Assembly: GCA_965226785.1 (NCBI GenBank)
Contig: CBDDEC010000004.1
Location: 588,093 to 652,092 of the forward strand
Direction: 5' to 3'
Length of the DNA: 64,000 nucleotides
Source of the DNA: Dehalococcoidia bacterium
GTDB lineage: Bacteria > Chloroflexota > Dehalococcoidia > UBA2979
A model generated the notes under the pieces. That model saw nothing but the letters and a program-made list of their open reading frames with translations. It had not been told where the DNA came from and ran no database searches. How positions within the stretch are numbered: position 1 is the stretch's first letter; each line of letters opens with the position of its first letter. Shown here one piece after another: positions 12,988 to 63,795 of this stretch. The translations under genes and the position numbers were made by a program.

Positions 12988-14195
<1,208 letters not shown>

Positions 14196-14355
14196 CGCTC
14201 CATCCTCTCAAGGACTGGAGCCTCCAACATTCCCGGGGCGGTTCACGCAGCTACTCAGGTGTCGCGCCAGCTCGCGTCTTGACAGTCTGGCAGCGCGCTG
14301 ATAGCACTCCAACGATGCAAGCTCCGACCGGACGTCGTTTGGCGGTGGTGAGCTG

Positions 14356-27299: not shown

Positions 27300-27347
27300 C
27301 TTGGACCTCCCCATAGTGAACCGCCCCGGGTTTAGTGGAGACTCGGT

Positions 27348-28555
<1,208 letters not shown>

Positions 28556-28628
28556 CGCTCCATCCTCTCAAGGACTGGAGCCTCCAACATTCCCGGGGCG
28601 GTTCAGAGAGCCGAACTAAGCGAGGTTG

Positions 28629-30451: not shown

Positions 30452-31264
30452 TCATTCGGTCTCGCCTCGGTTAAACGCGGCGATCGCTTCCTTCAATCCG
30501 TTGGTCCGGACCATGTTCGCCAGCTTCTCCACAGGCTCCGATGCGTGTAACAGCGCGTCGATCTCGGAACCGAACGTCACGGCTACGCGGAACCCCTGGG
30601 TATCCACCGTCCTGTTGACGGAGAGCTTTTTCATCTGGAGGATCTTCGATGGTACCGTCGCGATCTTCATCGCCATTGCCCTGACCGTACTCTCTAGCTC
30701 CTCGGGAGGTACGGCGCGATTTGCCCAGCCCCAGTCTGAGGCCTGTTTTCCGCTAATCTGGCTGCCTGGTACGAACGACATCTCCTTTGCCCGCTTCGGT
30801 CCGACAAGCCAAGTCCACATCGGACTTATGTAGCCGCCTCCGACTGGAATCCCAGGAAAACCGACGATGGCGTCTTCGGCGATGATGGTGATATCGCAGA
30901 AGATACAAAGCTGTGTCGCTCCGCCCAGACAGTAGCCATGGACCTGAGCAATAACTGGCTTCGGGCAATCCCAGATCTTGAGCCACAGATCCGTGTTGCG
31001 CTGCAGTCGGTTGCGATCGTCTATCGTATCCTGCGTCGGCTGACTCGCTTCATCCCCCGGGCTGAGGTCGTACCCCGAAGAGAAGGCTCGTCCGGCTCCT
31101 CGGATGATGATCACCCGCGTATCCGGGTCGTTCGTCGCATCTTCGATAGCGGCCGCGATTCCCTCCCGGATCTCATCGTTGATGGCGTTCAGCCGCTCGG
31201 GGCGGTTCAGCGTAAGAACGCCAATCTGCCCGTCCTTCTCCCACAGCACGCTGTCACTCGACAT
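30452..31264 (-). CDS. enoyl-CoA hydratase/isomerase family protein
   Basis: LTLNRPERLNAIN and AFSSGYDL. Confidence 0.75.
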   Translation of the reverse strand: MSSDSVLWEKDGQIGVLTLNRPERLNAINDEIREGIAAAIEDATNDPDTRVIIIRGAGRAFSSGYDLSPGDEASQPTQDTIDDRNRLQRNTDLWLKIWDCPKPVIAQVHGYCLGGATQLCIFCDITIIAEDAIVGFPGIPVGGGYISPMWTWLVGPKRAKEMSFVPGSQISGKQASDWGWANRAVPPEELESTVRAMAMKIATVPSKILQMKKLSVNRTVDTQGFRVAVTFGSEIDALLHASEPVEKLANMVRTNGLKEAIAAFNRGETE

Positions 31265-31369: not shown

Positions 31370-32683
31370 CTAAGTCACCGGATGCCAAGTCGGCTCGTTT
31401 CCGATGACTTCGTCAGCCTGAAGCTGAGCTATCTCCTGATCGGATCGCCCCAGGATCTCCTTGAGAACAACAAGATTATCTGCTCCCAGAGTTGGAGAGG
31501 CTGTGTCCCACCCTGCAACCGATCGCTGGAAATGGAACGGAAAACCGACGTAGAGGTGCGCCCCCGATACCGGCCGGTCGAGAAGCTTTATATCACCACG
31601 GTCGTGAAAGTGTTCGATTGCGAGCGCCTGCGACTGATTCGCGACCGGTACTGCCGAAACACCCACTGCTTGCAACGTCGAGGCCAATTCGAAGGCGTTG
31701 TGTTTCCTTGTCCAATTGGAGATGTCCCGATCGAGATCCTCCAGGTGCTCCCGACGCCCTTGGATCGACAAGTACCGCGGATCGTCTGCGAAGCTCTCAC
31801 CCGAAGCTACGCCGCACAGGGCGGTCCACTCCAAATCCGAGTCCACGTCGATTGAAATCCACTCATCAAGGGCAAGCTTAACAGGGCGTTCCTCGGTCGA
31901 GTTCGCCAGCGCGATGATGACCTCCTGCTCGTCGCCTGGCTGGCATAGGTATACATTCTCTGGACCTGGCTTGCGATTCCCATCAGGCTCCTGCACCCGC
32001 TGATTCAGTGCGGAGTCCATCAGGAACTCTATCCCGAGTAACGCAGTGATCTCGACCTGTGCCTGTTCGATGATTTGACCTTGGCCGGTTGCATCACGGC
32101 TACGCAAAGCCGTGATGATCGAGAAAACGGCAATCGCCGCGTTGAAAACGTCCGAGTAAGGGACCGCCGCATCGCCATTGGGCCGCTCGCCACGATATGC
32201 ATGGGCGGCCGCGACGCCGGCAAGCTGGGTGAACGTGGCGCCGTAGCCAGTTCGGCCTGCGAGCGGTCCTTCGGAGCCGAAGCCATCGAGGCTCGCATAG
32301 ATCAGGCGCGGGTTCACCTGAGACAGCTGCTCGTACCCGATCCCGAGTTTCAACGCACTACCAGGTCGGTAGCTTTCGACCACGACATCGCTGACCCGCG
32401 CGAGATCGAGGAAGATTCGGTGACCGCGCTCATCGTCGAGGTTGACGGTGAAGCCGAGCTTCGCGTGATTGTACCCATTGAACGCAGCGCTCCATTCATG
32501 GCCGTCGGGGCCAGGCCTGCAGATGCGCATTAGACGAGCACCGTCATACCGCTGGATCGCTTCGACTTTAATCACCTCGGCTCCGAGGCCGCCGAGCAGG
32601 CAAGTCGCCAGTGGCCCAGCCCAATGCGAGCAATGATCGATGACACGGATGCCGGCGAGCGGCCCAGCCCTAACGGCGGGCAT
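31370..32683 (-). CDS. CaiB/BaiF family CoA-transferase
   Basis: GIRVIDHCSHWAGPLATCLLGGLGAEVIKVE. Start overlaps the upstream stop by 1 nt. Confidence 0.75.
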   Translation of the reverse strand: MPAVRAGPLAGIRVIDHCSHWAGPLATCLLGGLGAEVIKVEAIQRYDGARLMRICRPGPDGHEWSAAFNGYNHAKLGFTVNLDDERGHRIFLDLARVSDVVVESYRPGSALKLGIGYEQLSQVNPRLIYASLDGFGSEGPLAGRTGYGATFTQLAGVAAAHAYRGERPNGDAAVPYSDVFNAAIAVFSIITALRSRDATGQGQIIEQAQVEITALLGIEFLMDSALNQRVQEPDGNRKPGPENVYLCQPGDEQEVIIALANSTEERPVKLALDEWISIDVDSDLEWTALCGVASGESFADDPRYLSIQGRREHLEDLDRDISNWTRKHNAFELASTLQAVGVSAVPVANQSQALAIEHFHDRGDIKLLDRPVSGAHLYVGFPFHFQRSVAGWDTASPTLGADNLVVLKEILGRSDQEIAQLQADEVIGNEPTWHPVT

Positions 32684-33876
32684 CAGTGTTCGCCCGCCAG
32701 GCTTAGCTCCTCGATCGCCTCGTTCGTCAGGCCCAACGCAGAGAGGACCTCGACGGTGTGCTCACCGACCAGCGGTGCCGGAGCCAGCGGAGCGAACGGC
32801 ATCCCGGATGCACGAATATAGTTGCTAGGCATGCGCACTGACGAGCCGTCAGGCAGAGCTTGGTCGGCGAAGTAGCCTCTCACGTTGAGGTGTTCTGCGC
32901 CGAGGACATCCTCGGCGGTCAAGACCGGGCTGATGGGGATCTGGTTCCGCTCGTTGCCCTCCTCAAAGAGTTCATCGCGCGTACGTTGCCGCATAAGTGG
33001 GTCGAATATCTCGTACAGTTCGTCGGCGTGCTCTATCCGAATCGCAGGGTTTGCGAACCGCGGATCTTCCAGCAGCGCATCCAATCCGAACATCGAACAA
33101 AGCCTTCGCCAGTGGTCGTCAGTCAGCAGGTTGATCCCGACGAATCCGTCCGCACATTTCATCACACCCGGAAAGGGGAGGTGGATACGCTGGGAAATGG
33201 CCCCGATATAGGAGAACCGCATCAGTCCCAGCGTCGCCGTCAGCAACTGGCTCCCCACCTGGCTAATATCAATCAGCTGCCCGAGGCGTTCCCGCCGGTT
33301 GGCTCGCAGAGGCGCCGCAAGCATCGCTGCTGCACACGCCCCGGTGAGAAGCTCGGAGGCTCTCCCTGGAGCCCGTAACGGTGGCCCATCTGTCGCGCCC
33401 CACCCGTACATCCCGCCCGCGATCGACTGGAACGCCAGGTCGTGGCCCTTCCAGTAGCGCCAAGGCCCGGTCATCCCGAAAGGCGTAATCCGAAGCCAAA
33501 CAAGCGCCGACAGGTCGGACCTCAGAGCGAGAATGGGGTCGTCATCAGGGTTGAGTGGACGGGAGTCGATCACTGCGTCTGCGCTGCGGAGCAGGATGTG
33601 GAGCGCTTCGCGACCCGACCGGGTCTCGACATCGAGTACTACGCTCCGCTTCCGAGCGTTCAGGAACGCGTGCATCCCGCTCAATGGAGGGCCAGTGGCG
33701 GACTGTTTGAGAGGCGGCAGGGACCGTGTGTCGTCGCCTCCGCTCGGCTCGACCTTGATGATGTCCGCGCCGAGGTCGGAGAAGAGCTTCCCGCAGAGAG
33801 CCCCGGCTATGCCACCACCGAGTTCTACGATGACGACCTCGGCATACGGACCGCTGTAAGATTCAGTGGTCATCAC
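32683..33876 (-). CDS. CaiB/BaiF family CoA-transferase
   Basis: VVIVELGGGIAGALCGKLFSDLGADIIKVEP. ATGA overlap with the upstream LLM gene. Confidence 0.75.
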   Translation of the reverse strand: MMTTESYSGPYAEVVIVELGGGIAGALCGKLFSDLGADIIKVEPSGGDDTRSLPPLKQSATGPPLSGMHAFLNARKRSVVLDVETRSGREALHILLRSADAVIDSRPLNPDDDPILALRSDLSALVWLRITPFGMTGPWRYWKGHDLAFQSIAGGMYGWGATDGPPLRAPGRASELLTGACAAAMLAAPLRANRRERLGQLIDISQVGSQLLTATLGLMRFSYIGAISQRIHLPFPGVMKCADGFVGINLLTDDHWRRLCSMFGLDALLEDPRFANPAIRIEHADELYEIFDPLMRQRTRDELFEEGNERNQIPISPVLTAEDVLGAEHLNVRGYFADQALPDGSSVRMPSNYIRASGMPFAPLAPAPLVGEHTVEVLSALGLTNEAIEELSLAGEH

Positions 33877-34883
33877 GTTCCGAACGTCTTTAGGATTCGG
33901 CGAATGTTCGCAGCTGCATCGGCGCGGGCGGGCCCGGCGGCATGCGAATACAAAATCGGGGTGACAACGCTCTGGAACCGCTCAACGCGATCGATGACGT
34001 CGCTCGCTGTGCCCGCAGCTGCGATGGTGTCGATCATTTCATCGGTGACAGCAGCTGCCAGCGCGTCCCAGTCGCCCGCGCTGAAAGCGTTTCGAATCGG
34101 CTGCTTTTGACTCGACCAGCCGTGCCAATCCAGCAGCTTCCCGTATGACTTGGTGCTCAAATAGTAGCCGATCTGATAAGCCGCTCGCTTGCGCGCCACC
34201 CCGCGATCTTTGTCAATCGAGGTGATGACCCAGCTCGTCAACCTGAAAGCGGCGTCACCCCGTCCGGCCTCATCCAGGCCCTGTTTCACCTTTGGTGCCG
34301 CAGCGCGCTCTAGGTACTCTGGCGAGAAACAGGGATGGCCGGCGAGTCCGTCGAACGTGCGACCGGCCGTCCGGAGCATATAGTCGTTAACCGCCGCCAA
34401 GTAGATCGGGATCGGCGGCTCGACGCGCGCTCGTTTTAGCGCGGGCCCGTCGAGCGTGACGTTGATGAAGGTCCCGCTGAAGTTAAAGGCGCCCGGTTCG
34501 GCGTAAGCCCAAACCTGCCTAAGGAACTCGCAGAGCTCGGCCACACGCGGAGCGGGGTGGTCGAATTCCTCGCCGAGTTGGTAGAGGTTCTGACGCTTCG
34601 TACCGGTGCCAAGGCCAAGGATGAAGCGCCCATCAGTCAACGATTGGAGGTTGGCGGCAGCCGTCGCCAGAGTCAGAGGTGAGCGAGCGAAGGCGCGAGC
34701 GATCCCGGTCCCAAGTGTGGCGCGCCGCACGACGTGGGCGATTGAGGCGAGGGCGACGAAAGCGTCGCCGTCCTCCACCCAGATGGAGTCTAGGCCGCCG
34801 CGGTCGGCGATCTCCGCCAGCCGGATTCGTTCGCGCACGTCAACATGGGCCAACGAAACCCCTAGCGGTTGTCCTGCATCCAT
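33873..34883 (-). CDS. LLM-class flavin/F420-dependent oxidoreductase
   Basis: Luciferase-like TIM-barrel motifs (LGLGTGT, IYLAA). 336 aa. Confidence 0.7.
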   Translation of the reverse strand: MDAGQPLGVSLAHVDVRERIRLAEIADRGGLDSIWVEDGDAFVALASIAHVVRRATLGTGIARAFARSPLTLATAAANLQSLTDGRFILGLGTGTKRQNLYQLGEEFDHPAPRVAELCEFLRQVWAYAEPGAFNFSGTFINVTLDGPALKRARVEPPIPIYLAAVNDYMLRTAGRTFDGLAGHPCFSPEYLERAAAPKVKQGLDEAGRGDAAFRLTSWVITSIDKDRGVARKRAAYQIGYYLSTKSYGKLLDWHGWSSQKQPIRNAFSAGDWDALAAAVTDEMIDTIAAAGTASDVIDRVERFQSVVTPILYSHAAGPARADAAANIRRILKTFGT

Positions 34884-40727: not shown

Positions 40728-40756
40728 GGACGCTCTCTCCCAGGCCGAAGTCAAGC

Positions 40757-41497
40757 GGTGCCGCGGCCATCCGCATCGTCGGCGAGCTGCGTGCGCTTGG
40801 CTTCGACGTCAGCGCTCGCACCGTGAGTCGTTACCGCCGGCAAGCGCTGCGGCGACCGCCGAGCCAGTCGTGGCGCACGTTTCTCCGCAACCACGCGTCC
40901 AGCATCTGGGCCGCCGATCTGTTCACGGTCCAGACGCTCGCCTTCCGCACGCTCTCCGTGCTCATCGTGATCGACCACGACCGGCGCCGCATCCGGCACT
41001 GGAACGTCACGGAGCATCCGAACGCGCCCTGGATCTGGCAGCAGATGATCGAGGCGACCGCCTGGGGTCAGCAGCCAGGGTTCCTCATCCGAGACCGCGA
41101 CCGTAGCTATGGCGGAGACTTCATCGCACGCGCTCGACGGCTCGGGATCGAGACGATTCTGACTCCGGTGCACGCGCCGAATGCCAACGCCATCGCCGAG
41201 CGCGTCATCGGCACGCTCAGGCGCGAGTGTCTCGACCATGTCATCGCGGTCAACGAACAACATCTCCGGCGGGTGCCTGGTGAGTACGTCCAGCACTACA
41301 ACGCGATGCGGCCGCATCGATCATTGGCGCTCGACTCTCCGGAGGGACGCTCGCCGGTGCAGCGGACGCCGAGTCAGCGAGTTGTCAGCAAGCCGGTGCT
41401 AGGAGGTTTGCATCATGAGTATCGGTGGGCCGCATCAGGTTTTGCCGACTTGTTTGAATCCGGCCAGACACCGGGGGTTGCGGCCCTAAGGTGTTGA
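40757..41497 (+). pseudogene. IS481-like (type 1) element copy D: 5'-truncated transposase, stop codon mutated, right IR interrupted by IS110
   Basis: Homologous to the transposase 51259..52338 from residue ~135 onward. Terminal GCATGAGGTTTTGCCGTCCCAC is altered to GCATCAGGTTTTGCCG|ACTTG. The remaining CCCACGG is found at about 42673. Confidence 0.7.
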
Positions 41498-51236: not shown

Positions 51237-52353
51237 GTGGGACGGCAAAACCTGATAGGTGCAGCTCTGTCCTGAGATAGCAGAGTATCGGCGAGCCACG
51301 AGAGGCTCGTCTGTGCTCTACCTCCGTCTGCTTGTCGCAGCACTCTTCGCATCGGTCCGCGCCCGCCGAGATCTCGTCCTCGAGAACTTGGCGCTGCGGC
51401 ATCAGCTCGCCGTCTACACAAGGGGCCGTCGTCGACCGCGGCTCCGTCGCCACGACCGCCGACTCTGGTCACTGCTGGCACGTGGTTGGTCCGGCTGGCG
51501 AGGCACGCTCGTGATGGTCGAGCCGGACACGGTGGTGCGCTGGCATCGTTCTGCTTGGCGCGCCTACTGGCGCTGGAAGAGTCGTCGCCGCTCCGGACGA
51601 CCCCGGATTCCCGCAGAGCTGCGACAGCTGATCGTCCGCATCGCCACTGAGCATCCGCGGTGGGGCGCCGTCCGCATCGTCGGCGAGCTGCGTGCCCTTG
51701 GCTTCGAGGTCAGCGCCCGCACCGTGAGTCGCTACCGTCAGCAGGCGCTCCGGCGACCGCCGAGTCAGTCGTGGCACACGTTTCTCCGCAACCACGCGTC
51801 CAGCATCTGGGCCGCCGATCTGTGCACGGTCCAGACGCTCGCCTTCCGCACGCTCTCCGTGCTCATCGTGATCGACCACGACCGGCGCCGCATCCGGCAC
51901 TGGAACGTCACGGAGCATCCGAACGCGCCCTGGATCTGGCAGCAGCTGATCGAGGCGAGCGCCTGGGGTCAGCAGCCAGGGTTCCTGATCCGAGACCGCG
52001 ACCGTAGCGATGGCGGAGACTTCATCGCACGCGCTCGACGGATCGGGATCGAGACGATTCTGACTCCGGTGCACGCGCCGAATGCCAACGCCATCGCCGA
52101 GCGCGTCATCGGCACGCTCAGGCGCGAGTGTCTCGACCATGTCATCGCGGTCAACGAACAACATCTCCGGCGGGTGCCTGGTGAGTACGTCCAGCACTAC
52201 AACGCGATGCGTCCGCATCGATCATTGTCGCTCGACTCTCCGGAGGGACGCTCGCCGGTGCAGCGGACGCCGAGTCAGCGAGTCGTCAGCAAGCCGGTGC
52301 TAGGAGGCTTGCATCATGAGTATCGGTGGGCCGCATGAGGTTTTGCCGTCCCA
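51237..52353 (+). mobile_element. IS481-like (type 1) insertion sequence, copy A (~1.1 kb, intact)
   Basis: Terminal IRs GTGGGACGGCAAAACCT (left) and rc at the right end. Copies at 57243.. (truncated), 60041..61158 (intact), 63921.. (edge), 40757.. (fragment). Confidence 0.8.
51259..52338 (+). CDS. DDE (rve integrase-core) transposase, IS481-like single-ORF type (359 aa)
   Basis: N-terminal leucine-zipper/HTH (LVLENLALRHQLAV, HPRWGAVRIVGELRALG). Core IWAADLFTVQT...LIRDRDRS...RPHRSL. Confidence 0.8.
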   Translation: MQLCPEIAEYRRATRGSSVLYLRLLVAALFASVRARRDLVLENLALRHQLAVYTRGRRRPRLRRHDRRLWSLLARGWSGWRGTLVMVEPDTVVRWHRSAWRAYWRWKSRRRSGRPRIPAELRQLIVRIATEHPRWGAVRIVGELRALGFEVSARTVSRYRQQALRRPPSQSWHTFLRNHASSIWAADLCTVQTLAFRTLSVLIVIDHDRRRIRHWNVTEHPNAPWIWQQLIEASAWGQQPGFLIRDRDRSDGGDFIARARRIGIETILTPVHAPNANAIAERVIGTLRRECLDHVIAVNEQHLRRVPGEYVQHYNAMRPHRSLSLDSPEGRSPVQRTPSQRVVSKPVLGGLHHEYRWAA

Positions 52354-52564
52354 CGGCCAGCCCGGGTCGCCGAGGTCCCTTGCCGAGATGGCCGTGGCCT
52401 CTGGCGAGATGGAGCCGGGAAAGAGCTCCAGCAGCACATCGGGCGAGCTGGTCCCCGCGCTAGGTATGGTGGGCTGCCCGCGAACTCCGCCACGATCAAG
52501 TCGGCGAAGTCGCCAGCAGAGACTTCGCGTTGGGGGGCAGCCTGTGAAGCAGGGCAGTAGGTCG

Positions 52565-52882
52565 TCACTCAGTGGGACTGCCGAGCCCGTGCGTGATCAG
52601 TTTCGTGGCGATCCCGATGTCATCCGAGTCTTTGAGGACGGCGAACGCGGGGACTCCGGCGAAGAACTCGACGACGCTGACCTCCAGTTCGTCGAGGATC
52701 GTGAGCAGGTTCACCACCGAGATGTCACGCGCGCCGCTCTCGTACAGAGAGAGCGATCCCTGGGACAGGCCCACGGCCTCTGCAACGCGCTGCTGCGAGA
52801 CCTTGCGTAGGAGACGAATCTCCCGGAGACGCGCCCCGACCGACCGCACCAACGCACTCTTCGGTGGTTTGCTCTTCGGCAC
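52565..52882 (-). CDS. XRE-family helix-turn-helix transcriptional regulator
   Basis: LREIRLLRKVSQQRVAEAVGLSQGSLSLYESGARDISVVNLLTILDEL HTH_3 pattern. 105 aa. Confidence 0.7.
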   Translation of the reverse strand: MPKSKPPKSALVRSVGARLREIRLLRKVSQQRVAEAVGLSQGSLSLYESGARDISVVNLLTILDELEVSVVEFFAGVPAFAVLKDSDDIGIATKLITHGLGSPTE

Positions 52883-53752: not shown

Positions 53753-54088
53753 GTGCATGCAGTCTCTCGACGAACGATTGGGCTCTGGGTCGAGGCGGAG
53801 CTCGAGGGCGGCCGGGACATTCCCGAGCCGAGTGACCCGGAGCGCTACTCGGGCCACTACACGCTGCGCATCCCGCCGGCGCTCCAAGCGGACGCTGCCG
53901 AGTTCGCGGAGCTGCAGGGTGTAAGCCTCAACCGTGTCTTCTCTGCCGCCATCGCGTTCTACGTCGGCCGGCACACCGGTGGCATCGCGGTTGATGAGCT
54001 GGCACCACCGGTGCACCGAGAGCTCGTGCCGTTTCAGCTCGAAGCTCTAGAGAAGATCGTCGACCTACAGGGGGCTGCGGGCGGATGA
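53753..54088 (+). CDS. ribbon-helix-helix (CopG/HicB-antitoxin-like) DNA-binding protein
   Basis: YSGHYTLRIPPALQADAAEFAELQGVSLNRVFSAAIAFYV resembles the C-terminal RHH of HicB-family antitoxins. No HicA partner found. Confidence 0.4.
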   Translation: MHAVSRRTIGLWVEAELEGGRDIPEPSDPERYSGHYTLRIPPALQADAAEFAELQGVSLNRVFSAAIAFYVGRHTGGIAVDELAPPVHRELVPFQLEALEKIVDLQGAAGG

Positions 54089-54651
54089 CGAACGTTCAGT
54101 CCAGCTTGGACCGTGCGCGGCTCGAGCAGTTCGAGTCAGGCTTTCGGGATCGTCGGCGCGAGATCGCTCTCGCAAGATCGTCGAACAAACACAAGCTCTC
54201 ACCCTCAGCAGCTGTGAAGTTGCTGAACGCACAGGGCTCTCGACGGCGGGTATGACGGCAGCGTGAGAGATGGCCCATCGCGAAATGTGAAGCCTCGCTG
54301 TCGCTCAGGATGCGGATTGGAGCGACCGACGGCGGCGCAGAGGGGGCTCGTCGGCAGTCGGTGGAGGTAGCCAGCGCTTTGCCCGATTGAGCCTCGAGGT
54401 GGGTGCCACCGACGACGCTCGATCTTGGTCGCACCGGGTATAGGCACCATTGGAGGCCCCCTGACCGCTCTCTAGTAGTGGGTGGGGCGGGCTGTCAGTC
54501 GAGCTCGTGGAAGTCGGGAACGGAGGAGCCGGCTTCGACGCCGTCGGTCGCAGTCTGGCGAGCGAGCTCGCCGCAGGGGCGATGCCACCTCGAGGGCGCG
54601 CGCCCGGCGCGCCTCGGGTGAGGTAAGCTCGCGACGGACCGAGGAGACGCC

Positions 54652-55708
54652 CGTGACGACCAGCATCGAGACCCCGCAGCCGCGCCTCCACGTCGTCGAG
54701 GACGAGGCATCCGCGATCGACTACTGCTACGAGCAGGGGTGGACGGACGGCCTGCCCGTCGTGCCTCCTACCGAGGAGCGCGTGCAGGCGATGCTCGAGT
54801 GGGCCGCGCGCCCGCCCGAGGAGGTGCTGGCGACGCACCCACCGACCGGACGCGCCTGCACGGTGTACGCGGCGGCGGTGAACGCCGTCCTTGCCGGGTG
54901 TTTGCCGGAGTACTTCCCGGTGGTGATTGCGGCGCTTGAGGCGATGAGCGAGCCGGAGTACGCGTACCACGCCTCGACGGCGAGCACGGGCGGGTCGGTG
55001 CCGATGCTGATCGTGAGCGGCCCGATCAAGGACGAGATCGCGATGAACTCCGAGGGCAACGTCTTCGGCTCGGGTAACCGCGCCAACGCCACGATCGGGC
55101 GCGCGATTCGCCTCGTCACACTTAACGTCTTCAAGATGACGCCCGGGATCGCCGACCGCTCAACGACCGGCTGGCCCGGCAAGTACTCGTGCTGCATCGC
55201 CGAGTACGAGGAGGCGAGCCCTTGGAAGCCGCTGCGCGTCGAGCTGGAGTTCCCGGACGAGATCAGCACGGTCACGGTCTTCGCCGCGAGCGGCTTCTAC
55301 AACATCGAGAACCACTACACCGACGACCCGGAGGCGCTGCTGACGACGTTCTCTGATGCGATGGCGAGCCTGGGCGCGTTCAGCCCCGGCGAGTCGGTAG
55401 TCGTGTTCTCGCCGGAGCATGCGGCGATCGCCGCCAGCGGTGGCTGGTCCAAGCAGGACGTGCGCGAGTTCCTCTTCGAGCGCGCCGCGCGCACGCGCGA
55501 GGAGCTGCGCCGCGCGGGCAAGGTCCCCGGCCCTGTCGAGCCCTCGGACGGGACGACCCTGGTACATCGCGGGCACTCGCCTGAGGACATATTGATCGCG
55601 GTCGCAGGGGGTGAGGCGGGCGGTCACTCCGCGTTCCTCACCTCGTGGAGCCGCGGCCGCGGCTCGCTACGCCAGACGGCGCCCATTGGCGTCTGCGTCG
55701 ACTGCTAG
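54652..55708 (+). CDS. hypothetical protein, co-operonic with the UGSC selenoprotein candidate
   Basis: GTG start with RBS GAGGAGA 6 nt upstream; the ORF is open from 54482. 352 aa with several Cys pairs (CCIAEY, GVCVDC). 9-bp gap to the next gene. Confidence 0.5.
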
Positions 55709-55717
55709 GGAGGCAGC

Positions 55718-56290
55718 GTGATGGCCGTACAACTGGTCGACCCGACCGTCGAGGCGCCGGACACCGACAACTCGTACGCTCCGCGCCTCGAAGTCCTCGA
55801 CGGGTTACGCATCGGGCTGCTCTGGAATGGCAAGGTGAATGCCGACGCGCTGCTGCGCGAGACGGCGCGCTGCTTCGAGGAGCATCACGGCTGCGCGGTC
55901 GTCGATGAGGCCTCGAAGCCCTCGGCGAGCCACATAGCAGAGCCGCAGGTGCTGGAACGTCTGGCGGAGAACGTCGACTTTCTGATCACCGCGGTAGGGG
56001 ACTGAGGCTCCTGCTCGACGTGCAGTGTGCACGACGGTATCTCGTTCGAGCAGCTCGGCAAGCCGGCCCTCGTGCTGTGCACGAAGCCGTTCGAGGCGAC
56101 GGGCCACATGATCGCCACGACGACAGGGCTGCCTGACTTCCGCTTCGCCCTCCTCGACCACCCGATCGGGAGCGCCAGCGCAGCAGGCATCGCCGCCCGC
56201 GCCGAGGATGCCTACCGGCAAGGGTTGTCGATCCTGCGCGCGGACCAGCAGCCAACCAGATTCGTCGAAAAAGCCAAGCCCTCACCCTGA
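55718..56290 (+). CDS. UGSC-family selenoprotein candidate (in-frame TGA at 56003..56005 read as Sec)
   Basis: Two same-frame ORFs (55718..56005 and 56027..56290) are joined by a single TGA. Translation through it gives ...DFLITAVGD-U-GSCSTCSV..., the U-G-S-C motif. A stable hairpin follows 11 nt later. Confidence 0.6.
56016..56036 (+). promoter_or_regulatory. candidate bacterial SECIS stem-loop
   Basis: CGACGTGCA-GTG-TGCACGACG: a 9-bp stem with one mismatch and a 3-nt loop, starting 11 nt after the UGA. Confidence 0.45.
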
Positions 56291-56494
56291 GGCGCTACCA
56301 GCCTGTTGAGCTCAGCGGTCTGACGCTCGCGGTGTGACGCTGGCAGGGTTCCGGACCCGAGCGCAGTGCTTCACACCTGAGTGTCGGAGTCAATCCGCTC
56401 GCGTGTCGCCGTAGAAGTAGAGCTGGTCGCCGGCGAGCGTCGGCGGTCCATGCCTCGAAGTCGCCCGGTGACATCGCCGCCCAGTCCGGGGTCT

Positions 56495-56592
56495 CGTGGG
56501 GCGGCAATATTCCATCCAGCCCATGATTTCGGCGTTTCGGAGTCAGCGGCGCGCCTCGCGGATACGGCGGATGAGGTTTTCGTGCCCCACAG
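56495..56592. repeat. MITE-like repeat element A, copy 3
   Basis: See 37829..37916. Confidence 0.6.
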
Positions 56593-56774
56593 CGGGCATG
56601 CCGAGTCACCGGCCAGCACCGCTCCACACAGCGCCGCCTGTCGGCGCGCGGCCACGGCGACGACGCGCTGCGGACGGAGTTGCACGCCTTCTCGCGTGGC
56701 CACCCCCGCTGGGGTTACCGCCGGGCGTGGCGCGGCGGCTGAATGACCGCCTCGCAGTCCGGCGCTATTGAGAA

Positions 56775-56841
56775 GTGTGGGTGTGAGATCTCGGTACCCG
56801 CACGACAGAACGGCTCCGGTACCTGCACGACATGTGGTGCA
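56775..56841. repeat. solo right-end remnant of the type 2 IS481-family element
   Basis: GTGTGGGTGTGAGATCTCGGTACCCGCACGACAGAACGGCTCCGGTACCTGCACGACATGTGGTGCA is about 95% identical to 37917..37985. No transposase adjacent. Confidence 0.6.
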
Positions 56842-56952
56842 CGCGAACTGGCAACCGCGCCCAGCCGCTTCGCATCGTCAGAAACTGCCGTCAGCACTGG
56901 GCGGATGCGCCGCGAGGACCTTGGGGTACACGAGCGAGGCGAAGCATCCGCG

Positions 56953-57238
56953 CTATGCGGGTGGTGAGTCGTCCCTCTCTTCACCATCATCGCCGGCATC
57001 CTCGTCGCCATCGCCATCGCCGTCGATAAGGTCGCGCGCCCGATCGACTGTTCCGCTGGCGGCGTCCACAACCGCCTCGGCCGCGTCGCCAGCCGTTTCG
57101 ACGACCTGGTCGGCGGCCGATGAGGCCGCCCCCGCCGCGCCGCTCGCTGCGTCAGCCGCGCCGCCAGCGAGGTCGCCTGCAACGCCCTTTCCTCTTCCGA
57201 ACATCCCCTTGATTGAATCGAGCAGTCCCATGCACCAC
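56953..57238 (-). CDS. small hypothetical acidic/Gly-Ala-rich protein
   Basis: MGLLDSIKGMFGRGKG... ORF ending at an Asp/Glu-rich tail. Start lies 3 bp from the IS481-like copy B left end. The longer 168-aa ORF is antisense to the IS end. Confidence 0.3.
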
Positions 57239-57242
57239 CGCC

Positions 57243-58172
57243 GTGGGACGGCAAAACTTGATCCGTGCAGGTCTGTCCTGAGATAGCAGAGTATCGGCGA
57301 GCCACGAGAGGCTCGTCTGTGCTCTACCTCCGTCTGCTTGTCGCAGCACTCTTCGCATCGGTCCGCGCCCGCCGAGATCTCGTCCTCGAGCACTTGGCGC
57401 TGCGGCATCAGCTCGCCGTCTACACAAGGGGCCGTCGTCGACCGCGGCTCCGTCGCCACGACCGCCGACTCTGGTCACTGCTGGCACGTGGTTGGTCCGG
57501 CTGGCGAGGCACGCTCGTGATGGTCGAGCCGGACACGGTGGTGCGCTGGCATCGTTCTGCTTGGCGCGCCTACTGGCGCTGGAAGAGTCGTCGCCGCTCC
57601 GGACGACCCCGGATTCCCGCAGAGCTGCGACAGCTGATCGTCCGCATCGCCACTGAGCATCCGCGGTGGGGCGCCGTCCGCATCGTCGGCGAGCTGCGTG
57701 CCCTTGGCTTCGAGGTCAGCGCCCGCACCGTGAGTCGCTACCGCCGGCAAGCGCTGCGGCGCCCCCCGAGCCAGTCGTGGCGCACGTTTCTCCGCAACCA
57801 CGCGTCCAGCATCTGGGCCGCCGATCTGTTCACGGTCCAGACGCTCGCCTTCCGCACGCTCTCCGTGCTCATCGTGATCGACCACGACCGGCGCCGCATC
57901 CGGCACTGGAACGTCACGGAGCATCCGAACGCGCCCTGGATCTGGCAGCAGATGATCGAGGCGACCGCCTGGGGTCAGCAGCCAGGGTTCCTGATCCGAG
58001 ACCGCGACCGTAGCTATGGCGGAGACTTCATCGCACGCGCTCGACGGCTCGGGATCGAGACGATTCTGACTCCGGTGCACGCGCCGAATGCCAACGCCAT
58101 CGCCGAGCGCGTCATCGGCACGCTCAGGCGCGAGTGTCTCGACCATGTCATCACGGTCAACGAACAACATCT
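57243..58172 (+). mobile_element. IS481-like (type 1) copy B, 3'-truncated by nested IS3 insertion
   Basis: Left IR and the first about 290 codons of the transposase (57265..58172) are present. The gene runs directly into the IS3 IR at 58173. Confidence 0.8.
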
Positions 58173-58222
58173 TGAACCGCCCCGGGAATGTTGGAGGCTC
58201 CAGTCCTTGAGAGGATGGAGCG

Positions 58223-59430
<1,208 letters not shown>

Positions 59431-59519
59431 ACCGAGTCTCCACTAGCGAACCCGGGGCGGTTCAGTCCGGAGAACCGGGTCAGGCTCCGAGAGCCTCAGT
59501 TTGAGTCGAGGAGGAAAGC

Positions 59520-59927: not shown

Positions 59928-60040
59928 CCAAGGAACGCCGCGCAAGGTCTCTGGCAAAGCCCGTTGCGACCCTTGGTACGAGTTCGCAGTACAGCACGCT
60001 TAGGCCCACCACCCTGACTGAAGACAACACCGGGGCCGCC

Positions 60041-61158
60041 GTGGGACGGCAAAACCTGATAGGTGCAGCTCTGTCCTGAGATAGCAGAGTATCGGCGAGC
60101 CACGAGAGGCTCGTCTGTGCTCTACCTCCGTCTGCTTGTCGCAGCACTCTTCGCTTCGGTCCGCGCCCGCCGAGATCTCGTCCTCGAGAACTTGGCGCTG
60201 CGGCATCAGCTCGCCGTCTACACCCGGGGCTGTCGTCGACCGCGGCTCCGTCGCCACGACCGCCGATTCTGGTCACTACTGGCACGCGGTTGGTTCGGCT
60301 GGCGAGGCACGCTCGTGATGGTCGAGCCGGACACGGTGGTGCGGTGGCATCGTTCTGCTTGGCGCGCCTACTGGCGCTGGAAGAGTCGTCGCCGCTCCGG
60401 ACGACCCCGGATTCCCGCAGAGCTGCGACAGCTGATCGTCCGCATCGCCACTGAGCATCCGCGGTGGGGCGCCGTCCGCATCGTCGGCGAGCTGCGTGCC
60501 CTTGGCTTCGAGGTCAGCGCCCGCACCGTGAGTCGCTACCGCCGGCAAGCGCTGCGGCGCCCCCCGAGCCAGTCGTGGCGCACGTTTCTCCGCAACCACG
60601 CGTCCAGCATCTGGGCCGCCGATCTGTTCACGGTCCAGACGCTCGCCTTCCGCACGCTCTACGTGCTCATCGTGATCGACCGCGACCGGCGCCGCATCCG
60701 GCACTGGAACGTCACGGAGCATCCGAACGCGCCCTGGATCTGGCAGCAGATGATCGAGGCGACCGCCTGGGGTCAGCAGCCAGGGTTCCTGATCCGAGAC
60801 CGCGACCGTAGCTATGGCGGAGACTTCATCGCACGCGCTCGACGGCTCGGGATCGAGACGATTCTGACTCCGGTGCGCGCGCCGAATGCCAACGCCATCG
60901 CCGAGCGCGTCATCGGCACGCTCAGGCGCGAGTGTCTCGACCATGTCATCGCGGTCAACGAACAACATCTCCGGCGGGTGCTTGGTGAGTACGTCCAGCA
61001 CTACAACGCGATGCGTCCGCATCGATCATTGTCGCTCGACTCTCCGGAGGGACGCTCGCCGGTGCAGCGGACGCCGAGTCAGCGAGTCGTCAGCAAGCCG
61101 GTGCTAGGAGGCTTGCATCATGAGTATCGGTGGGCCGCATGAGGTTTTGCCGTCCCAC
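60041..61158 (+). mobile_element. IS481-like (type 1) insertion sequence, copy C (intact)
   Basis: IRs as in copy A. Transposase 60063..61142 (359 aa, a few substitutions relative to A). Confidence 0.8.
60063..61142 (+). CDS. DDE (rve) transposase, IS481-like type 1
   Basis: About 97% identical to 51259..52338. Confidence 0.8.
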   Translation: MQLCPEIAEYRRATRGSSVLYLRLLVAALFASVRARRDLVLENLALRHQLAVYTRGCRRPRLRRHDRRFWSLLARGWFGWRGTLVMVEPDTVVRWHRSAWRAYWRWKSRRRSGRPRIPAELRQLIVRIATEHPRWGAVRIVGELRALGFEVSARTVSRYRRQALRRPPSQSWRTFLRNHASSIWAADLFTVQTLAFRTLYVLIVIDRDRRRIRHWNVTEHPNAPWIWQQMIEATAWGQQPGFLIRDRDRSYGGDFIARARRLGIETILTPVRAPNANAIAERVIGTLRRECLDHVIAVNEQHLRRVLGEYVQHYNAMRPHRSLSLDSPEGRSPVQRTPSQRVVSKPVLGGLHHEYRWAA

Positions 61159-61588
61159 GGGCCCATAACTACGCCTGTATCGCGGTTCAGTGTGGCACCA
61201 TCACTCGCGGGTAGCAGCGGCGAAGTTGGGGCAATGGCCATGTACGCCGGTGACTCCGTGCGTTTCATCCGCGGGGTCGAACCTGCGAGTGAGATAGTTC
61301 GCGAGATCGCTGAAGGTGCCGACGAGCTCCTGCGTGCGCGGAGCTGAGATCCCCGGCCCCCGGCAGGGCTGACTGCGTATTGACGCCCGGGCAGCATCTT
61401 CCTCTGGGACGGCGACGGCTCAATGACGCACGAGGACTCGATGCGCAGCCTGCGGCTGATGGGCGAGGAGGTGCTCCCTGCCATGCGCGAAGTCGCCGAC
61501 GAACTCCGCCTAGACGGCCCCTTCGACGTCCACCCGATGACCGGAGCACGCCGCGAAGGCTCGGCCGTCGAGGGCTAGGCGCGTCTTC

Positions 61589-62815
61589 CTACGCCCCCAC
61601 CTCGCCGAGGTCGCGGAGGGCCTCGGCGAGACGCTCATAGTCGGCGCGGGTGTTGTAGAGCTGCGCCGAGACGCGCAACAGGCGTCGAGGCGGCGACGGC
61701 CAGCGCATCACGGGCACCTCAATGCGGTAGTCCTCGATCAACGTGGCGTTCAGTTTGTCGGACGGTCCGCGTCCGGGCGTGACGTCGTCGGGCCAGCGCA
61801 GCGGCAGCGCCGCCATCGAACCGAGCATGTCGTCGGGCGCTGGTGCTGTGGTCATGTCGAGGGCGTCTACCAGCAGGTCACGAGCCTCGAGGGCGAGTGC
61901 GTGGTTGCGTTGGCGGATGGCGTCCCAGCCGCCTTCGTGCGCCGCGCCGACCGCGTCGATCGCGGTCGGGACGCAGAGCCAGGGAGTGATGTCGGCGGTG
62001 CCGAGCCAGTCGAACTCGTGGTGGAAGCGAGAGCGCGAGGCGTCTTGAGCGTTCGCGCCGTGGCTGATCACAGTCGGGCGGATCGCGGACTGACGCTGTG
62101 GTGCGACCCAGAGGAAGCCAGCGCCCTTCGGCGAGCAGAGCCACTTGTGGCAGTTGCCGCTGTAGTAGGTCACGCCGACCTCTGCGAGGCTGTCGAGGTC
62201 CAGCGGGATCATTCCGGGCGCATGCGCGCCGTCGACCAGCACCTCAATGCCGCGCGAGGTGAGTGCCGACGCCATTTCCTCGAGGGGGAGCACTAGCGCG
62301 GTAGGGCTCGTGATGTGATCGACCATTGCCAGGCGAGTCCTCGAGCTGACGCGCTCGAGCAGCGAATCGACGACCTCGCCCGGCGACTCGATCGGGAACG
62401 GGATTGGCGCGACGACGACTGTGGCGCTCGCGCGCTCGGCGACGAAGTCGAGGGCATTGCGGCACGCATTGTAGGCATGGTCGGTCACGAGCAGCTCATC
62501 GCCGGGCTCGAAGCGCAACGAGCGCAGCACGGCGTTGACGCCGGTGGTCGCGTTGTTCACGAAAGCGAGATCGGCCGTTCGAGCGCCGACGAACGCGGCG
62601 AGTGCCGCGCGAGCGTCATCGATGCGCTGTTGTCTCGTGCGGGTCAAGAACTCGATCGGCTCGCGCTCGAGTTCGTCGCGCAACGCCTGCTGGCGTGCCA
62701 GCACGGGCCGAGGTGTCGCGCCGTAGGAGCCATGGTTGAGGTATGCGACCTCCGGGTCGAGCGCCCAGAACTCCTGTGTCGTGCTGCTCCCGGCTGGCGG
62801 CGCGCCGTCGCTCAC
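61589..62815 (-). CDS. class V aminotransferase-fold PLP-dependent enzyme (cysteine desulfurase/isopenicillin-N-epimerase-like)
   Basis: AYLNHGSYGATPRPV N-terminus. PLP-lysine region YYSGNCHKWLCSPKGAGFLWV. 408 aa. Confidence 0.7.
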   Translation of the reverse strand: MSDGAPPAGSSTTQEFWALDPEVAYLNHGSYGATPRPVLARQQALRDELEREPIEFLTRTRQQRIDDARAALAAFVGARTADLAFVNNATTGVNAVLRSLRFEPGDELLVTDHAYNACRNALDFVAERASATVVVAPIPFPIESPGEVVDSLLERVSSRTRLAMVDHITSPTALVLPLEEMASALTSRGIEVLVDGAHAPGMIPLDLDSLAEVGVTYYSGNCHKWLCSPKGAGFLWVAPQRQSAIRPTVISHGANAQDASRSRFHHEFDWLGTADITPWLCVPTAIDAVGAAHEGGWDAIRQRNHALALEARDLLVDALDMTTAPAPDDMLGSMAALPLRWPDDVTPGRGPSDKLNATLIEDYRIEVPVMRWPSPPRRLLRVSAQLYNTRADYERLAEALRDLGEVGA

Positions 62816-63795
62816 TGCGAGGTGGCGAGCGCGACCGCTGCGAACGATCGCTCGACCGAGCCGGCGCGGTCCTCGCGGTCGACGAGCGGCTGCGCGAGCA
62901 CCTCGTCGATGCCGGCATCGCGCCAGCGGTGAAGCCCTGCGGCGACCTCCTCGACCGTGCCTGAGACGACGAGGTCGTCGAGCAGGTCGTCGCTATAGCC
63001 GTCGCTGACGTCATAACCGGCGGCGCTGAACATGCCCTGGTAGTTCGGCACGCGGGCGTACATCGCGAGCTGCTCGCGCGCCCAGCTGCGAGCCGTCTCC
63101 AGATCGACGCCGACGGCGATCGGCACGTGTGCGACCAGCGGCGGGCGCTCACGGCCCGCGGTCGCGGCGCCGGCCTCCATCGCCGGCAGCGCCGTGCCTA
63201 GCAGGTAGCGCAGCGGGCTCATCCACGAGATTGCGCCGTCACTGAGCTCGCCACAGAGCTCGTACGACTTTGGGCGCAGCGCAGAGGCCATCACCGGCAC
63301 CTCGGCGGTGGCCGAAATTCGGCCGCGGGAGCGGACGTGCACGCCCTCGAACTCGACCCGCCCCTCGGCCAGCAGGGTGCGCAGCGTCAACAGGTACTCG
63401 CGCAGATTCGTGAGCGGCTTGTGGTACGCAGTGCCATAGAGGCGGGTGACAAAGAACTCGGTGGTCGGGCCGATGCCGAGGCGGAAGCGGCCGGGTGCGA
63501 GCTGGTCGAGAGCGAGCAGCTCCTGCGCATAGATCACGGGGTGACGCGGCCAGGTGTGGAGGATGGCGGTGCCCATCTTGACACGCTCGGTCTGGACCGC
63601 GATCGCGGCGAAGACGGGCAGCATATCGGCGCCCCCGGCGCCGTTCATCGTCGCCCAGATCGACTCGATACCGGCCGCCTCGGCGGAGATCGCCTGAGCG
63701 ACCGCGCCTCGCGCGTCGCTCGCCTGGATCGCTACACCGAACATGCTCGCCTGCTCTCTCGCAGCGCTCGTGCCGTAGGAGGCACAGCCTCGCAC
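62812..63795 (-). CDS. LLM-class F420/flavin-dependent oxidoreductase
   Basis: MFGVAIQASD...LGIGPTT...PMLAV luciferase-like pattern. 4-nt overlap with the aminotransferase gene. Start may be ATG 63744. Confidence 0.7.
   Translation of the reverse strand: MRGCASYGTSAAREQASMFGVAIQASDARGAVAQAISAEAAGIESIWATMNGAGGADMLPVFAAIAVQTERVKMGTAILHTWPRHPVIYAQELLALDQLAPGRFRLGIGPTTEFFVTRLYGTAYHKPLTNLREYLLTLRTLLAEGRVEFEGVHVRSRGRISATAEVPVMASALRPKSYELCGELSDGAISWMSPLRYLLGTALPAMEAGAATAGRERPPLVAHVPIAVGVDLETARSWAREQLAMYARVPNYQGMFSAAGYDVSDGYSDDLLDDLVVSGTVEEVAAGLHRWRDAGIDEVLAQPLVDREDRAGSVERSFAAVALATSQ

What the first reader, a model, noticed from the sequence alone, without database searches (positions are those of the whole stretch)
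54652..56290. Candidate UGSC-motif selenoprotein with in-frame TGA and SECIS-like hairpin, in a two-gene operon
ORFs 55718..56005 and 56027..56290 are in the same frame and separated only by TGA at 56003..56005. Reading the TGA as selenocysteine gives ...ENVDFLITAVGD-U-GSCSTCSV..., a U-G-S-C redox-type motif, and a 190-aa product. From memory, a 'UGSC family (seleno)protein' exists as a named family. A 9-bp-stem hairpin CGACGTGCA-GTG-TGCACGACG begins 11 nt after the TGA, where bacterial SECIS elements sit. The upstream gene 54652..55708 (Cys-rich, 352 aa) is 9 bp away and probably co-translated. This would be a Sec-decoding gene in a high-GC genome, located on an IS-bracketed segment.
Basis: partly seen in the sequence, partly recalled or inferred. 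Interest (0 to 1): 0.8.

Follow-up and report, generated by a model that had tools for sequence, protein, structure and literature searches.

The report
UGSC selenoprotein gene with conserved partner
This is a real selenocysteine-encoding gene of the already described UGSC family, wrongly split into two ORFs in public gene calls; it sits in an operon with a very widespread, unannotated partner protein that is the best available lead to the family's unknown function.

Summary
An in-frame TGA (56003-56005) joins two ORFs into one 189/190-aa protein. That protein passes both curated UGSC models (Pfam PF24696, 171 bits; NCBIfam NF041046, 126.6 vs cutoff 125). Cys-type homologs place Cys exactly at the TGA, and about 120 metagenomic homologs carry TGA there. 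The hairpin 56016-36 is not significant alone (z -0.6 to -1.3), but it meets all four published bacterial SECIS criteria. It is also conserved with compensatory changes in 58 Sec-type genes (90.8% paired vs 10-48% in slid controls) and absent from 77 Cys-type genes. The upstream gene (54653-55708, 351 aa, not Cys-rich) is a conserved partner. It is adjacent in 71/80 Cys-type and 57/78 Sec-type loci and fused to UGSC in 41/41 long forms. It has no Pfam, NCBIfam or PDB relative despite about 7,700 representative clusters. The UGSC domain is predicted to be a Rossmann/flavodoxin-like fold, not thioredoxin-like. No selA/B/C/D lies in the window, and the rest of the source genome (a 2.99-Mb contig, probably Chloroflexota) could not be searched. 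Verdict: a new member of a known selenoprotein family, of modest interest.

The parts
54322..57242 (.). Conserved module segment: partner gene, UGSC gene and about 950 nt of 3' flank. It is 99.2% identical to L083 9670-12603, while the flanks differ.
   Evidence: blastn of window vs L083
54653..55708 (+). Partner gene, 351 aa, GTG start preceded by GAGGAG at 54641-46. It belongs to a very large unannotated family with invariant D32, N77, N132, N145, R150, D168, K177, E184 and W191, and no invariant Cys.
   Evidence: Adjacency and fusion.
55708..55713 (+). SD-like GGGAGG overlapping the partner's TAG stop codon. It lies 7 nt before ATG 55721 and 4 nt before GTG 55718.
   Evidence: read directly from the sequence
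55721..56290 (+). UGSC family selenoprotein gene, 189 aa from ATG 55721 (190 aa if GTG 55718 is used). It ends at an ordinary TGA stop at 56288-90.
   Evidence: Pfam PF24696 171.4 bits and NCBIfam NF041046 126.6 bits; alignment A1; purifying selection 3' of the TGA
56003..56005 (+). Sec-UGA codon, aligned to the invariant Cys of Cys-type homologs and to TGA in about 120 metagenomic homologs.
56016..56036 (+). SECIS hairpin: upper stem 56019-24 with 56028-33 (6 bp), loop GUG 56025-27, A.A mismatch at 56018/56034, and two further pairs 56016-17 with 56035-36.
   Evidence: fold; bSECIS criteria; covariation and Cys-type control; rare AGT codon in the loop
57238..58172 (+). IS481-like copy forming the right border of the module segment. 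It is truncated by the IS3-family element at 58173-59464.
51236..52356 (+). Nearest upstream IS481-like copy, 98% identical to the copies at 57238 and 60040.

Best explanation
Window 55721-56290 is one gene for a UGSC-family selenoprotein.

How it is decoded:
- The UGA at 56003 is decoded as selenocysteine. A SECIS hairpin starting 10 nt downstream (6-bp upper stem, GUG loop) would recruit SelB with Sec-tRNASec. This step is inferred from the bacterial SECIS model.
- Translation then continues 94 codons to an ordinary TGA stop.

What the protein looks like:
- It is a single Rossmann/flavodoxin-like alpha/beta domain.
- The U-G-S-C motif sits between strand 3 and the N-terminus of helix 3. This position suits a nucleophilic Sec that forms a selenenylsulfide with the Cys three residues on.

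How it works with the partner:
- It is made from the same operon as the upstream 351-aa partner and works with it as a two-component unit. In other organisms the two are one polypeptide.
- The partner has invariant polar residues but no invariant Cys. It is therefore proposed to bind the substrate, while UGSC supplies the only conserved redox-active residues. This step is inferred.
- The actual reaction is unknown. The recurrent catabolic neighbours suggest a small-molecule reductive step (speculative).
For: Family membership:
- Both curated HMMs are passed.
- G-D-[C/U]-G-S-C-S is invariant in the alignment.

TGA is not an accident:
- 120 of 132 TGA-pattern hits pass a UGSC HMM when read through.
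- Database proteins P0019-21 stop exactly at ...TAVGD.
- The gene is 100% identical over the 171 codons compared in a second contig (L083) and keeps TGA in Chloroflexota relatives whose partner is 74% identical.
- Codons 3' of the TGA show the same synonymous/nonsynonymous pattern as those 5' of it.

SECIS:
- All four published criteria are met.
- 90.8% of cells are paired vs 10-48% for slid partners. Covariation is 0.179 vs 0.064 for shuffles (0/500). Four pairs change on both sides.
- Wobble-wobble pairs 17-29 and 20-26 are 100% paired in Sec-type genes vs 43% and 51% in Cys-type genes.
- The loop is GUN in 57/58 Sec-type and 0/77 Cys-type genes.
- The loop Ser codon is AGT, only 8.5% of Ser codons in this window.

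One fold:
- In the AF2 model of a Cys homolog (pLDDT 90.2), the Cys lies between strand 90-94 and helix 99-114 of a five-unit beta/alpha domain. The two half-ORFs therefore cannot be separate folded proteins.

Partner link:
- Adjacent in 71/80 Cys-type loci.
- Same-strand neighbour in 57/78 Sec-type short-form loci; most of the rest are cut by contig ends.
- Fused to UGSC in 41/41 long forms.

Other:
- TGA is the normal stop in 17/26 window genes.
Against: - No selA, selB, selD or tRNA-Sec lies in the 64-kb window, and the rest of the 2.99-Mb source contig could not be searched.
- The hairpin alone is not better than shuffles.
- The NCBIfam score clears its cutoff by only 1.6 bits.
- The module lies at IS-mediated rearrangement junctions, so recent transfer into this genome is conceivable.
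- Nothing here shows expression, selenium incorporation, physical interaction with the partner or any catalytic activity.
- The redox and substrate-binding division of labour is inference only.
Confidence: 0.85

Rival explanations
1. Pseudogene: a Cys codon (TGC/TGT) of a Cys-type UGSC gene mutated to TGA, so only a truncated 94-aa fragment is made.
For: The gene lies in an IS-rich, rearranged region with other disrupted elements. Public gene calls list two separate ORFs.
Against: - TGA at this exact codon recurs in about 120 divergent homologs.
- It is accompanied by a conserved hairpin with compensatory changes that Cys-type genes lack.
- The 3' half stays open and under purifying selection.
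Confidence: 0.03
2. The gene is intact and a real family member, but it cannot be decoded in this host. It arrived by IS-mediated transfer into a genome that lacks the Sec machinery.
For: - The 2.9-kb module has different left flanks in two near-identical contigs and abuts IS copies.
- No sel genes or tRNA-Sec lie in the window or within the 30 Sec-type loci scanned.
Against: - The exact partner and UGSC half-products are on record on several contigs.
- Related Chloroflexota carry the same partner plus TGA-UGSC pair in ordinary, non-IS contexts.
- Chloroflexi include known Sec users (PMC1794560).
- The gene shows no decay.
Confidence: 0.08
3. A genuinely split gene: the 94-aa and 87-aa products are made separately (the second from GTG 56027) and assemble non-covalently.
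For: A GTG lies at 56027 and gene callers use it.
Against: - That GTG is the Val codon inside the hairpin loop and 3' arm, and it has no SD.
- In homologs the codon is CTG, TTG, ATG or GTC.
- The seven residues between the TGA and that GTG, G-S-C-S-T-C-S, begin with the family's invariant G-S-C-S and would be lost.
- The break falls in the middle of one alpha/beta domain.
Confidence: 0.02
4. UGA is read through as a standard amino acid (Cys or Trp by near-cognate suppression, or a reassigned code) rather than as Sec.
For: None specific. Cys would be functional at this site, as the Cys-type homologs show.
Against: - TGA is the commonest ordinary stop in the window, 17 of 26 genes, including this gene's own stop.
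- The conserved SECIS-type hairpin with a GU loop is unexplained by simple suppression.
Confidence: 0.02

Closest known systems
UGSC family (seleno)protein (NCBIfam NF041046; Pfam PF24696; 'UGSC-containing protein' of Zhang and Gladyshev, PMC1976440 and PMC2398784)
   Same: - Same domain over residues 6-173.
- Same invariant G-D-[U/C]-G-S-C-S motif.
- Sec and Cys forms coexist.
- The function is unknown in the literature (PMC13188914).
   Different: Nothing essential; this is a member.
- It comes from a probable Chloroflexota metagenome-assembled contig, where it is annotated as two ORFs.
- The published suggestion of a 'Trx-like fold' (PMC2398784) is not borne out by the AF2 model of a Cys homolog.
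Bacterial SECIS consensus (bSECISearch model, as summarised in PMC13188914); E. coli fdhF SECIS
   Same: - Hairpin inside the coding region just 3' of UGA.
- 3-nt loop beginning G-U.
- 6-bp upper stem.
- 19 nt from UGA to the loop.
- MFE -7.9 to -10.1 kcal/mol.
- From memory only: the apical ...UGCA-G(G)U(C)-UGCA... resembles the fdhF minimal hairpin GGUUGCAGGUCUGCACC.
   Different: - Triloop (or a 5-nt loop if the closing A-U opens) rather than the fdhF tetraloop.
- No bulged U.
- No Rfam model matches it.
- SelB binding is untested.
Glycine and D-proline reductase selenoproteins (GrdA, GrdB, PrdB), from established knowledge
   Same: - A small UxxC/CxxU selenoprotein working with a larger non-seleno subunit.
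- A plausible logic of Sec attack on a bound substrate, followed by selenenylsulfide formation.
- A catabolic gene context.
   Different: - No sequence relationship: PF07355 (GRDB) is not hit by any of 18 UGSC members even at E <= 10.
- The partner is unrelated to any Pfam family.
- The analogy concerns the mechanism only and is untested.
'UGSC/Unknown_1 fusion' (Fig. S1A of PMC2398784)
   Same: A conserved domain of unknown function fused to UGSC in aquatic metagenomes. The 41 long forms found here are UGSC-partner fusions.
   Different: The identity of 'Unknown_1' with this partner could not be verified, because the figure is held only as an image. The near-universal operon linkage and the size of the partner family were not mentioned in any passage read here.

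Membership tests
UGSC family (NF041046 / PF24696) | Whole-protein HMM score at or above the curated cutoff | tested here: met
   NF041046: 126.6 bits vs cutoff 125, a narrow margin. PF24696: 171.4 bits vs 25, covering residues 6-173 across the TGA.
UGSC family (NF041046 / PF24696) | [U/C]-G-S-C motif at the family's invariant position | tested here: met
   G94 D95 C96 G97 S98 C99 S100 are invariant in A1, and the window's TGA is at C96.
UGSC family (NF041046 / PF24696) | Cys/Sec pair: homologs with Cys, and independent homologs with TGA, at the same codon | tested here: met
   17 full-length Cys homologs, 420 Cys-type genomic loci and 120 TGA-type ORFs passing the HMM.
Bacterial SECIS (consensus model in PMC13188914) | Apical loop of 3-9 nt and upper stem of 4-16 bp | tested here: met
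   Loop GUG (3 nt) and a 6-bp perfect upper stem.
Bacterial SECIS (consensus model in PMC13188914) | G in the first two loop positions, usually G[G|U] | tested here: met
   The loop is G-U-G in the window and GUN in 57/58 Sec-type homologs.
Bacterial SECIS (consensus model in PMC13188914) | [quoted passage not shown] | tested here: met
   19 nt (56006-56024), counted.
Bacterial SECIS (consensus model in PMC13188914) | MFE <= -7.5 kcal/mol | tested here: met
   -7.9 kcal/mol for the 21-nt hairpin and -10.1 kcal/mol for 27 nt.
Bacterial SECIS (consensus model in PMC13188914) | Structure conserved among Sec-type homologs, with covariation | tested here: met
   90.8% paired vs 10-48% slid; covariation 0.179 vs 0.064 (0/500); 4 pairs with double-sided change. 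Absent from Cys-type controls.
Bacterial SECIS (consensus model in PMC13188914) | Binds SelB and directs Sec insertion | not testable with these tools
   Needs a reporter assay or a binding assay.
Sec-decoding organism | selA, selB, selD and tRNA-Sec (selC) present in the genome | not testable with these tools
   None lies in the 64-kb window. The source contig (2,986,355 bp) cannot be read beyond 10 kb around a known protein.
Thioredoxin-fold oxidoreductases (suggested for UGSC in PMC2398784) | Thioredoxin fold (beta-alpha-beta-alpha-beta-beta-alpha) | tested here: not met
GrdB/PrdB selenoprotein B (PF07355) | Sequence match to the GRDB model | tested here: not met
   No hit in any of 18 UGSC members at E <= 10.
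Any described family for the partner protein | Match to a Pfam, NCBIfam, PDB-sequence or PDB-fold relative | tested here: not met

The most novel reading that the evidence does not exclude
UGSC and its partner together form a widespread, so far uncharacterised two-component (or fused) selenoenzyme.
- The Cys-free partner has a fold without a solved relative and binds a small-molecule substrate.
- The Rossmann/flavodoxin-like UGSC subunit delivers a nucleophilic Sec/Cys with a resolving Cys.
- This would be a new class of Sec-dependent reductase, analogous in logic to glycine/proline reductase but unrelated to it, operating in catabolic gene clusters of Chloroflexota, Actinomycetota and marine Proteobacteria.
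Probability: 0.35. Interest if true: 0.6.

Novelty: new member of a known kind. Interest (0 to 1): 0.3.

Why it matters
For this locus, the result corrects an annotation. The public gene calls on the source contig list two fragments (94 and 87 aa) where there is one selenoprotein.

[quoted passage not shown] Three results give concrete handles for working out what it does:
- It is almost always encoded next to, or fused with, one particular partner protein.
- That partner family is large (about 7,700 clusters at 50% identity) yet has no Pfam or NCBIfam model and no solved structural relative.
- The UGSC domain is predicted not to be thioredoxin-like.

Cys-type versions occur in culturable Actinomycetota such as Microbacterium, Nocardioides and Pimelobacter simplex, where genetics is feasible.

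Tried and rejected
2. **Thioredoxin fold** (literature suggestion). Not supported.
4. **C-terminal CxxC tail of the window's partner as a general electron relay.** It is present in only 10/74 Sec-type loci and 0/70 actinobacterial partners. It is a feature of the sub-clade only.
5. **Rfam models.** No SECIS or tRNA-Sec match.
6. **ARAGORN 'tRNA-???' in L103.** Not confirmed by Rfam.
7. **Genome-contig scan.** It used a pattern containing GDCGSC, so it returned only Cys-type loci and could not find the source genome.
8. **Structure prediction of the window's own read-through sequence.** A 41%-identical Cys homolog was modelled instead.
9. **AFDB fold search.** Unavailable.
10. **Other TGA-split ORF pairs in the window.** Three further candidates appeared (62962+, 30143+, 35349-). 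The first two lie opposite genes on the other strand and look like shadow frames. The third is the normal stop of the NHL-repeat gene. None was pursued.
11. **Identity of 'Unknown_1' with the partner.** Not verifiable, because the figure is held as an image.

Full report
**1. The observation**

The sequence is as described. A GTG/ATG-initiated frame runs from 55718/55721 to TGA 56003-56005. The same frame stays open to a second TGA at 56288-56290. Read-through gives ...ENVDFLITAVGD-U-GSCSTCSVHDGISFEQ....

Small corrections:
- The upstream gene starts at GTG 54653, not 54652, and encodes 351 aa.
- It has 7 Cys, none conserved in its family, so it is not meaningfully Cys-rich.
- The probable UGSC start is ATG 55721. 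It lies 7 nt after GGGAGG 55708-13, which overlaps the partner's TAG stop, and it agrees with the 94-aa public gene calls.
- The '9-bp stem' contains an A.A mismatch. It is really 6 perfect pairs, the mismatch, then 2 further pairs around a GUG loop.
- Folded alone, the hairpin is no better than shuffled sequence in this 65% GC DNA (z -0.6 to -1.3). The single-sequence observation therefore does not exceed chance.

**2. Family membership**

With U replaced by C, the joined product matches Pfam PF24696 (UGSC) at 171.4 bits over residues 6-173. It matches NCBIfam NF041046 'UGSC family (seleno)protein' at 126.6 bits against a cutoff of 125.

Seventeen full-length Cys-type homologs align G-D-C-G-S-C-S invariantly, with the Cys on the window's TGA. 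Three database proteins end exactly at ...TAVGD, as expected for truncated calls of Sec-type genes.

A metagenome scan for A-V-G-D-TGA-G-S-C returned at least 120 stretches.

The 78 codons after the TGA show the same balance of synonymous and nonsynonymous change as the 93 codons before it. Against L084 the counts are 17/20 downstream and 24/29 upstream.

TGA is also the ordinary stop of 17 of 26 window genes, including this one. The code is therefore not reassigned.

**3. The SECIS**

A 2026 review gives the consensus for bacterial SECIS elements. The window's hairpin meets each criterion:

| Criterion | Window |
|---|---|
| 3-9 nt loop on a 4-16 bp upper stem | 3-nt loop, 6-bp stem |
| G in the first two loop positions, usually G[G/U] | G-U-G |
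| 16-37 nt from UGA to the loop | 19 nt |
| MFE <= -7.5 kcal/mol | -7.9 to -10.1 kcal/mol |

The decisive evidence is comparative. In 58 distinct short-form Sec-type genes the same helix sits at the same offset. Its sequence changes in compensated ways: CGUGCA/UGCACG, CGUGGA/UCCGCG, GGCCA/UGGCC.

On the ungapped alignment A2:
- 90.8% of cells pair, against 10-48% when the 3' strand is slid.
- The covariation score is 0.179 against 0.064 for shuffles (0 of 500 reach it).
- Four pairs change on both sides.

Three pairs join two codon wobble positions, which gives a clean control. Pairs 17-29 and 20-26 are 100% paired in Sec-type genes but only 43% and 51% in 77 Cys-type genes.

The loop reads GUN in 57/58 Sec-type genes and 0/77 Cys-type genes. 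This is because the Ser codon there is always AGT. AGT makes up 8.5% of Ser codons in this window, and this is the only AGT in the gene.

The A.A mismatch is shared by the sub-clade that has Thr (ACG) instead of Ser (TCG) at that position. It leaves the upper stem intact.

Rfam has no matching model.

**4. The partner**

The 351-aa upstream protein has no Pfam or NCBIfam match, even at permissive thresholds.

Its linkage to UGSC is very consistent:

| Set of loci | Result |
|---|---|
| 80 Cys-type UGSC loci from reference genomes, mostly Actinomycetota | homolog directly beside UGSC in 71 |
| 78 Sec-type short-form loci | same-strand neighbour in 57 (46 upstream as here, 11 downstream); nearly all others cut by contig ends |
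| 41 long-form Sec-type genes | partner domain fused C-terminally to UGSC in all 41 |

The fusions probably correspond to the 'UGSC/Unknown_1 fusion' mentioned in 2008. That could not be verified, because the figure is held only as an image.

The family is large. At least 7,981 hits were returned in the 90% clustered database. An exhaustive search found 7,694 representatives at 50% identity, 4,995 of them at E <= 1e-10.

Structure:
- The AF2 model is reasonably confident (pLDDT 81.6, pTM 0.85).
- Invariant residues are polar or Gly/Pro (D32, N77, N132, N145, R150, D168, K177, E184, W191). No Cys is invariant.
- The C-terminal CxxC of the window's protein is confined to its sub-clade.

**5. The UGSC fold**

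The window's own sequence could not be submitted, so a 41%-identical Cys homolog was modelled (pLDDT 90.2).
- The model has five consecutive beta-alpha units.
- The Cys that aligns with Sec lies between strand 3 and the N-terminus of helix 3.

The 'likely Trx-like fold' of the 2008 paper is therefore not supported. The local geometry (strand, U-x-x-C, helix N-terminus) is still the classic setting for a redox-active pair. Because the TGA falls in the middle of one domain, the two half-ORFs cannot be independent proteins.

**6. Context and source**

The exact partner and both UGSC half-products are on record on a 2,986,355-bp metagenomic contig (ENA ERZ28763718, ctg125171). There the gene is called as 94 + 87 aa.

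The nearest named relatives are Chloroflexota MAGs. The window carries five CoA-transferase III genes, four luciferase-like monooxygenases and four enoyl-CoA hydratases. From memory, that resembles SAR202-type Chloroflexota; this is an inference. Chloroflexi include known Sec users (PMC1794560).

The 38-64 kb part of the window is dense with IS elements. Only 54322-57242 is shared, at 99.2%, with the near-identical contig L083. Its right edge abuts an IS481-like copy, and the left flanks differ between the two contigs. 'IS-bracketed' is thus partly right.

No selA, selB, selD or tRNA-Sec is in the window or in the 30 Sec-type loci scanned. The rest of the genome is out of reach of these tools.

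Across loci, the recurrent neighbours are:
- a Zn-dependent alcohol dehydrogenase (36 loci, median 1.1 kb away),
- ABC transporter components,
- an IclR-type regulator,
- an aldehyde dehydrogenase,
- an amidohydrolase,
- luciferase-like monooxygenases.

The neighbour names are my reading of the cluster representative sequences; they were not scanned against Pfam. This is a catabolic setting with no single diagnostic third gene.

**7. Mechanism**

Shown:
- One gene, with TGA at the family's invariant Cys position.
- A conserved SECIS-type hairpin.
- A same-operon partner that is fused to UGSC elsewhere.

Inferred from the established bacterial Sec pathway:
- SelB with Sec-tRNASec binds the hairpin and inserts Sec at 56003.

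Inferred from motif and model:
- Sec acts as a nucleophile and Cys+3 resolves it to a selenenylsulfide.

Speculative:
- The Cys-free partner binds a small-molecule substrate that the Sec attacks. This is analogous in logic to glycine/proline reductase but not homologous to it.

**8. Novelty and verdict**

The UGSC-containing selenoprotein has been described since 2007-2008 (PMC1976440, PMC2398784). It has curated NCBIfam and Pfam models and appears in selenoproteome inventories. Only eight papers in the library mention it, and none is functional. A 2026 review still lists it among families of unknown function.

For a specialist its interest is modest. The added value is threefold: quantitative evidence for the SECIS, the near-obligate link to a large unannotated partner family of unknown fold, and the non-thioredoxin fold prediction.

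Noticed in passing
window 12957-14245 (-), 27317-28609 (-), 58173-59464 (+): Three copies of one IS3-family element, 99.5-99.7% identical. Each has an ALIL frameshift pseudoknot (Rfam RF01497, 88.1 bits) between orfA and orfB.
   Followed up: partly
window 51236-52356, 57238-58172, 60040-61160, partial 40755-41447: Several copies of an IS481-like element (HTH_32 + rve_3), 96-98% identical. The copy at 57238 is cut off at 58172 by insertion of the IS3 element, so this is a nested insertion.
   Followed up: partly
window 21304-23978, 31370-33876, 46942-49395; 18130-19194, 33873-34883, 50156-51100, 62812-63795; 4361-5395, 26496-27314, 28629-29441, 30452-31264: Paralog expansions: five CoA-transferase III genes (one an 816-aa double-domain protein), four luciferase-like monooxygenases and four enoyl-CoA hydratases. 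From memory this is typical of SAR202-type Chloroflexota.
   Followed up: no
window 3-845, 8493-9824, 9939-11297: Three adenylate/guanylate cyclase catalytic-domain proteins. Two are fused to an N-terminal alpha/beta-hydrolase domain.
   Followed up: no
window 52565-52882 (-), 53753-54088 (+): An HTH_3 regulator and a HicB-family antitoxin-like gene lie just upstream of the module. No HicA partner was recognised.
   Followed up: no
window 56953-57231 (-): A small acidic, low-complexity ORF with no Pfam hit lies inside the conserved 2.9-kb module segment. It is called as 92 aa on the source contig. Its longer 168-aa frame (56953-57459) runs past the edge of the conserved segment at 57242, where the IS481-like copy begins.
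   Followed up: no
L093 (2823, 8928), L115 (705, 6810), L167 (2152, 3867); proteins P0174, P0184, P0191, P0196, P0201: Fusion-type UGSC-partner selenoprotein genes occur as several paralogs per contig. At least five are named on one 13.8-kb Chloroflexi contig (locus tags HY675_24180-24225). Their hairpins 3' of the TGA differ from the short-form SECIS (motif UGSCTKY..., loops such as GUU or CUUGU).
   Followed up: partly
P0001, P0004 (Cys-type UGSC, 275-276 aa): Two actinobacterial Cys-type UGSC proteins carry a C-terminal NifU-like domain (PF01106) with its own CxxC. This may be a built-in redox or Fe-S relay.
   Followed up: no
P0263, P0274, P0276, P0287, P0290 (709-717 aa): Representatives of about 710 aa match the partner profile in two or more stretches. 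This suggests tandem duplicated partner domains in one protein.
   Followed up: no
window 61589-62815 (-): A class-V aminotransferase / cysteine-desulfurase-like gene sits 5 kb from the module, next to a luciferase-like gene, and is also present in L083. All NCBIfam matches are far below cutoff, including SufS (75 bits vs 475) and selenocysteine lyase SclA (55 bits vs 525). No link to selenium metabolism is established.
   Followed up: partly
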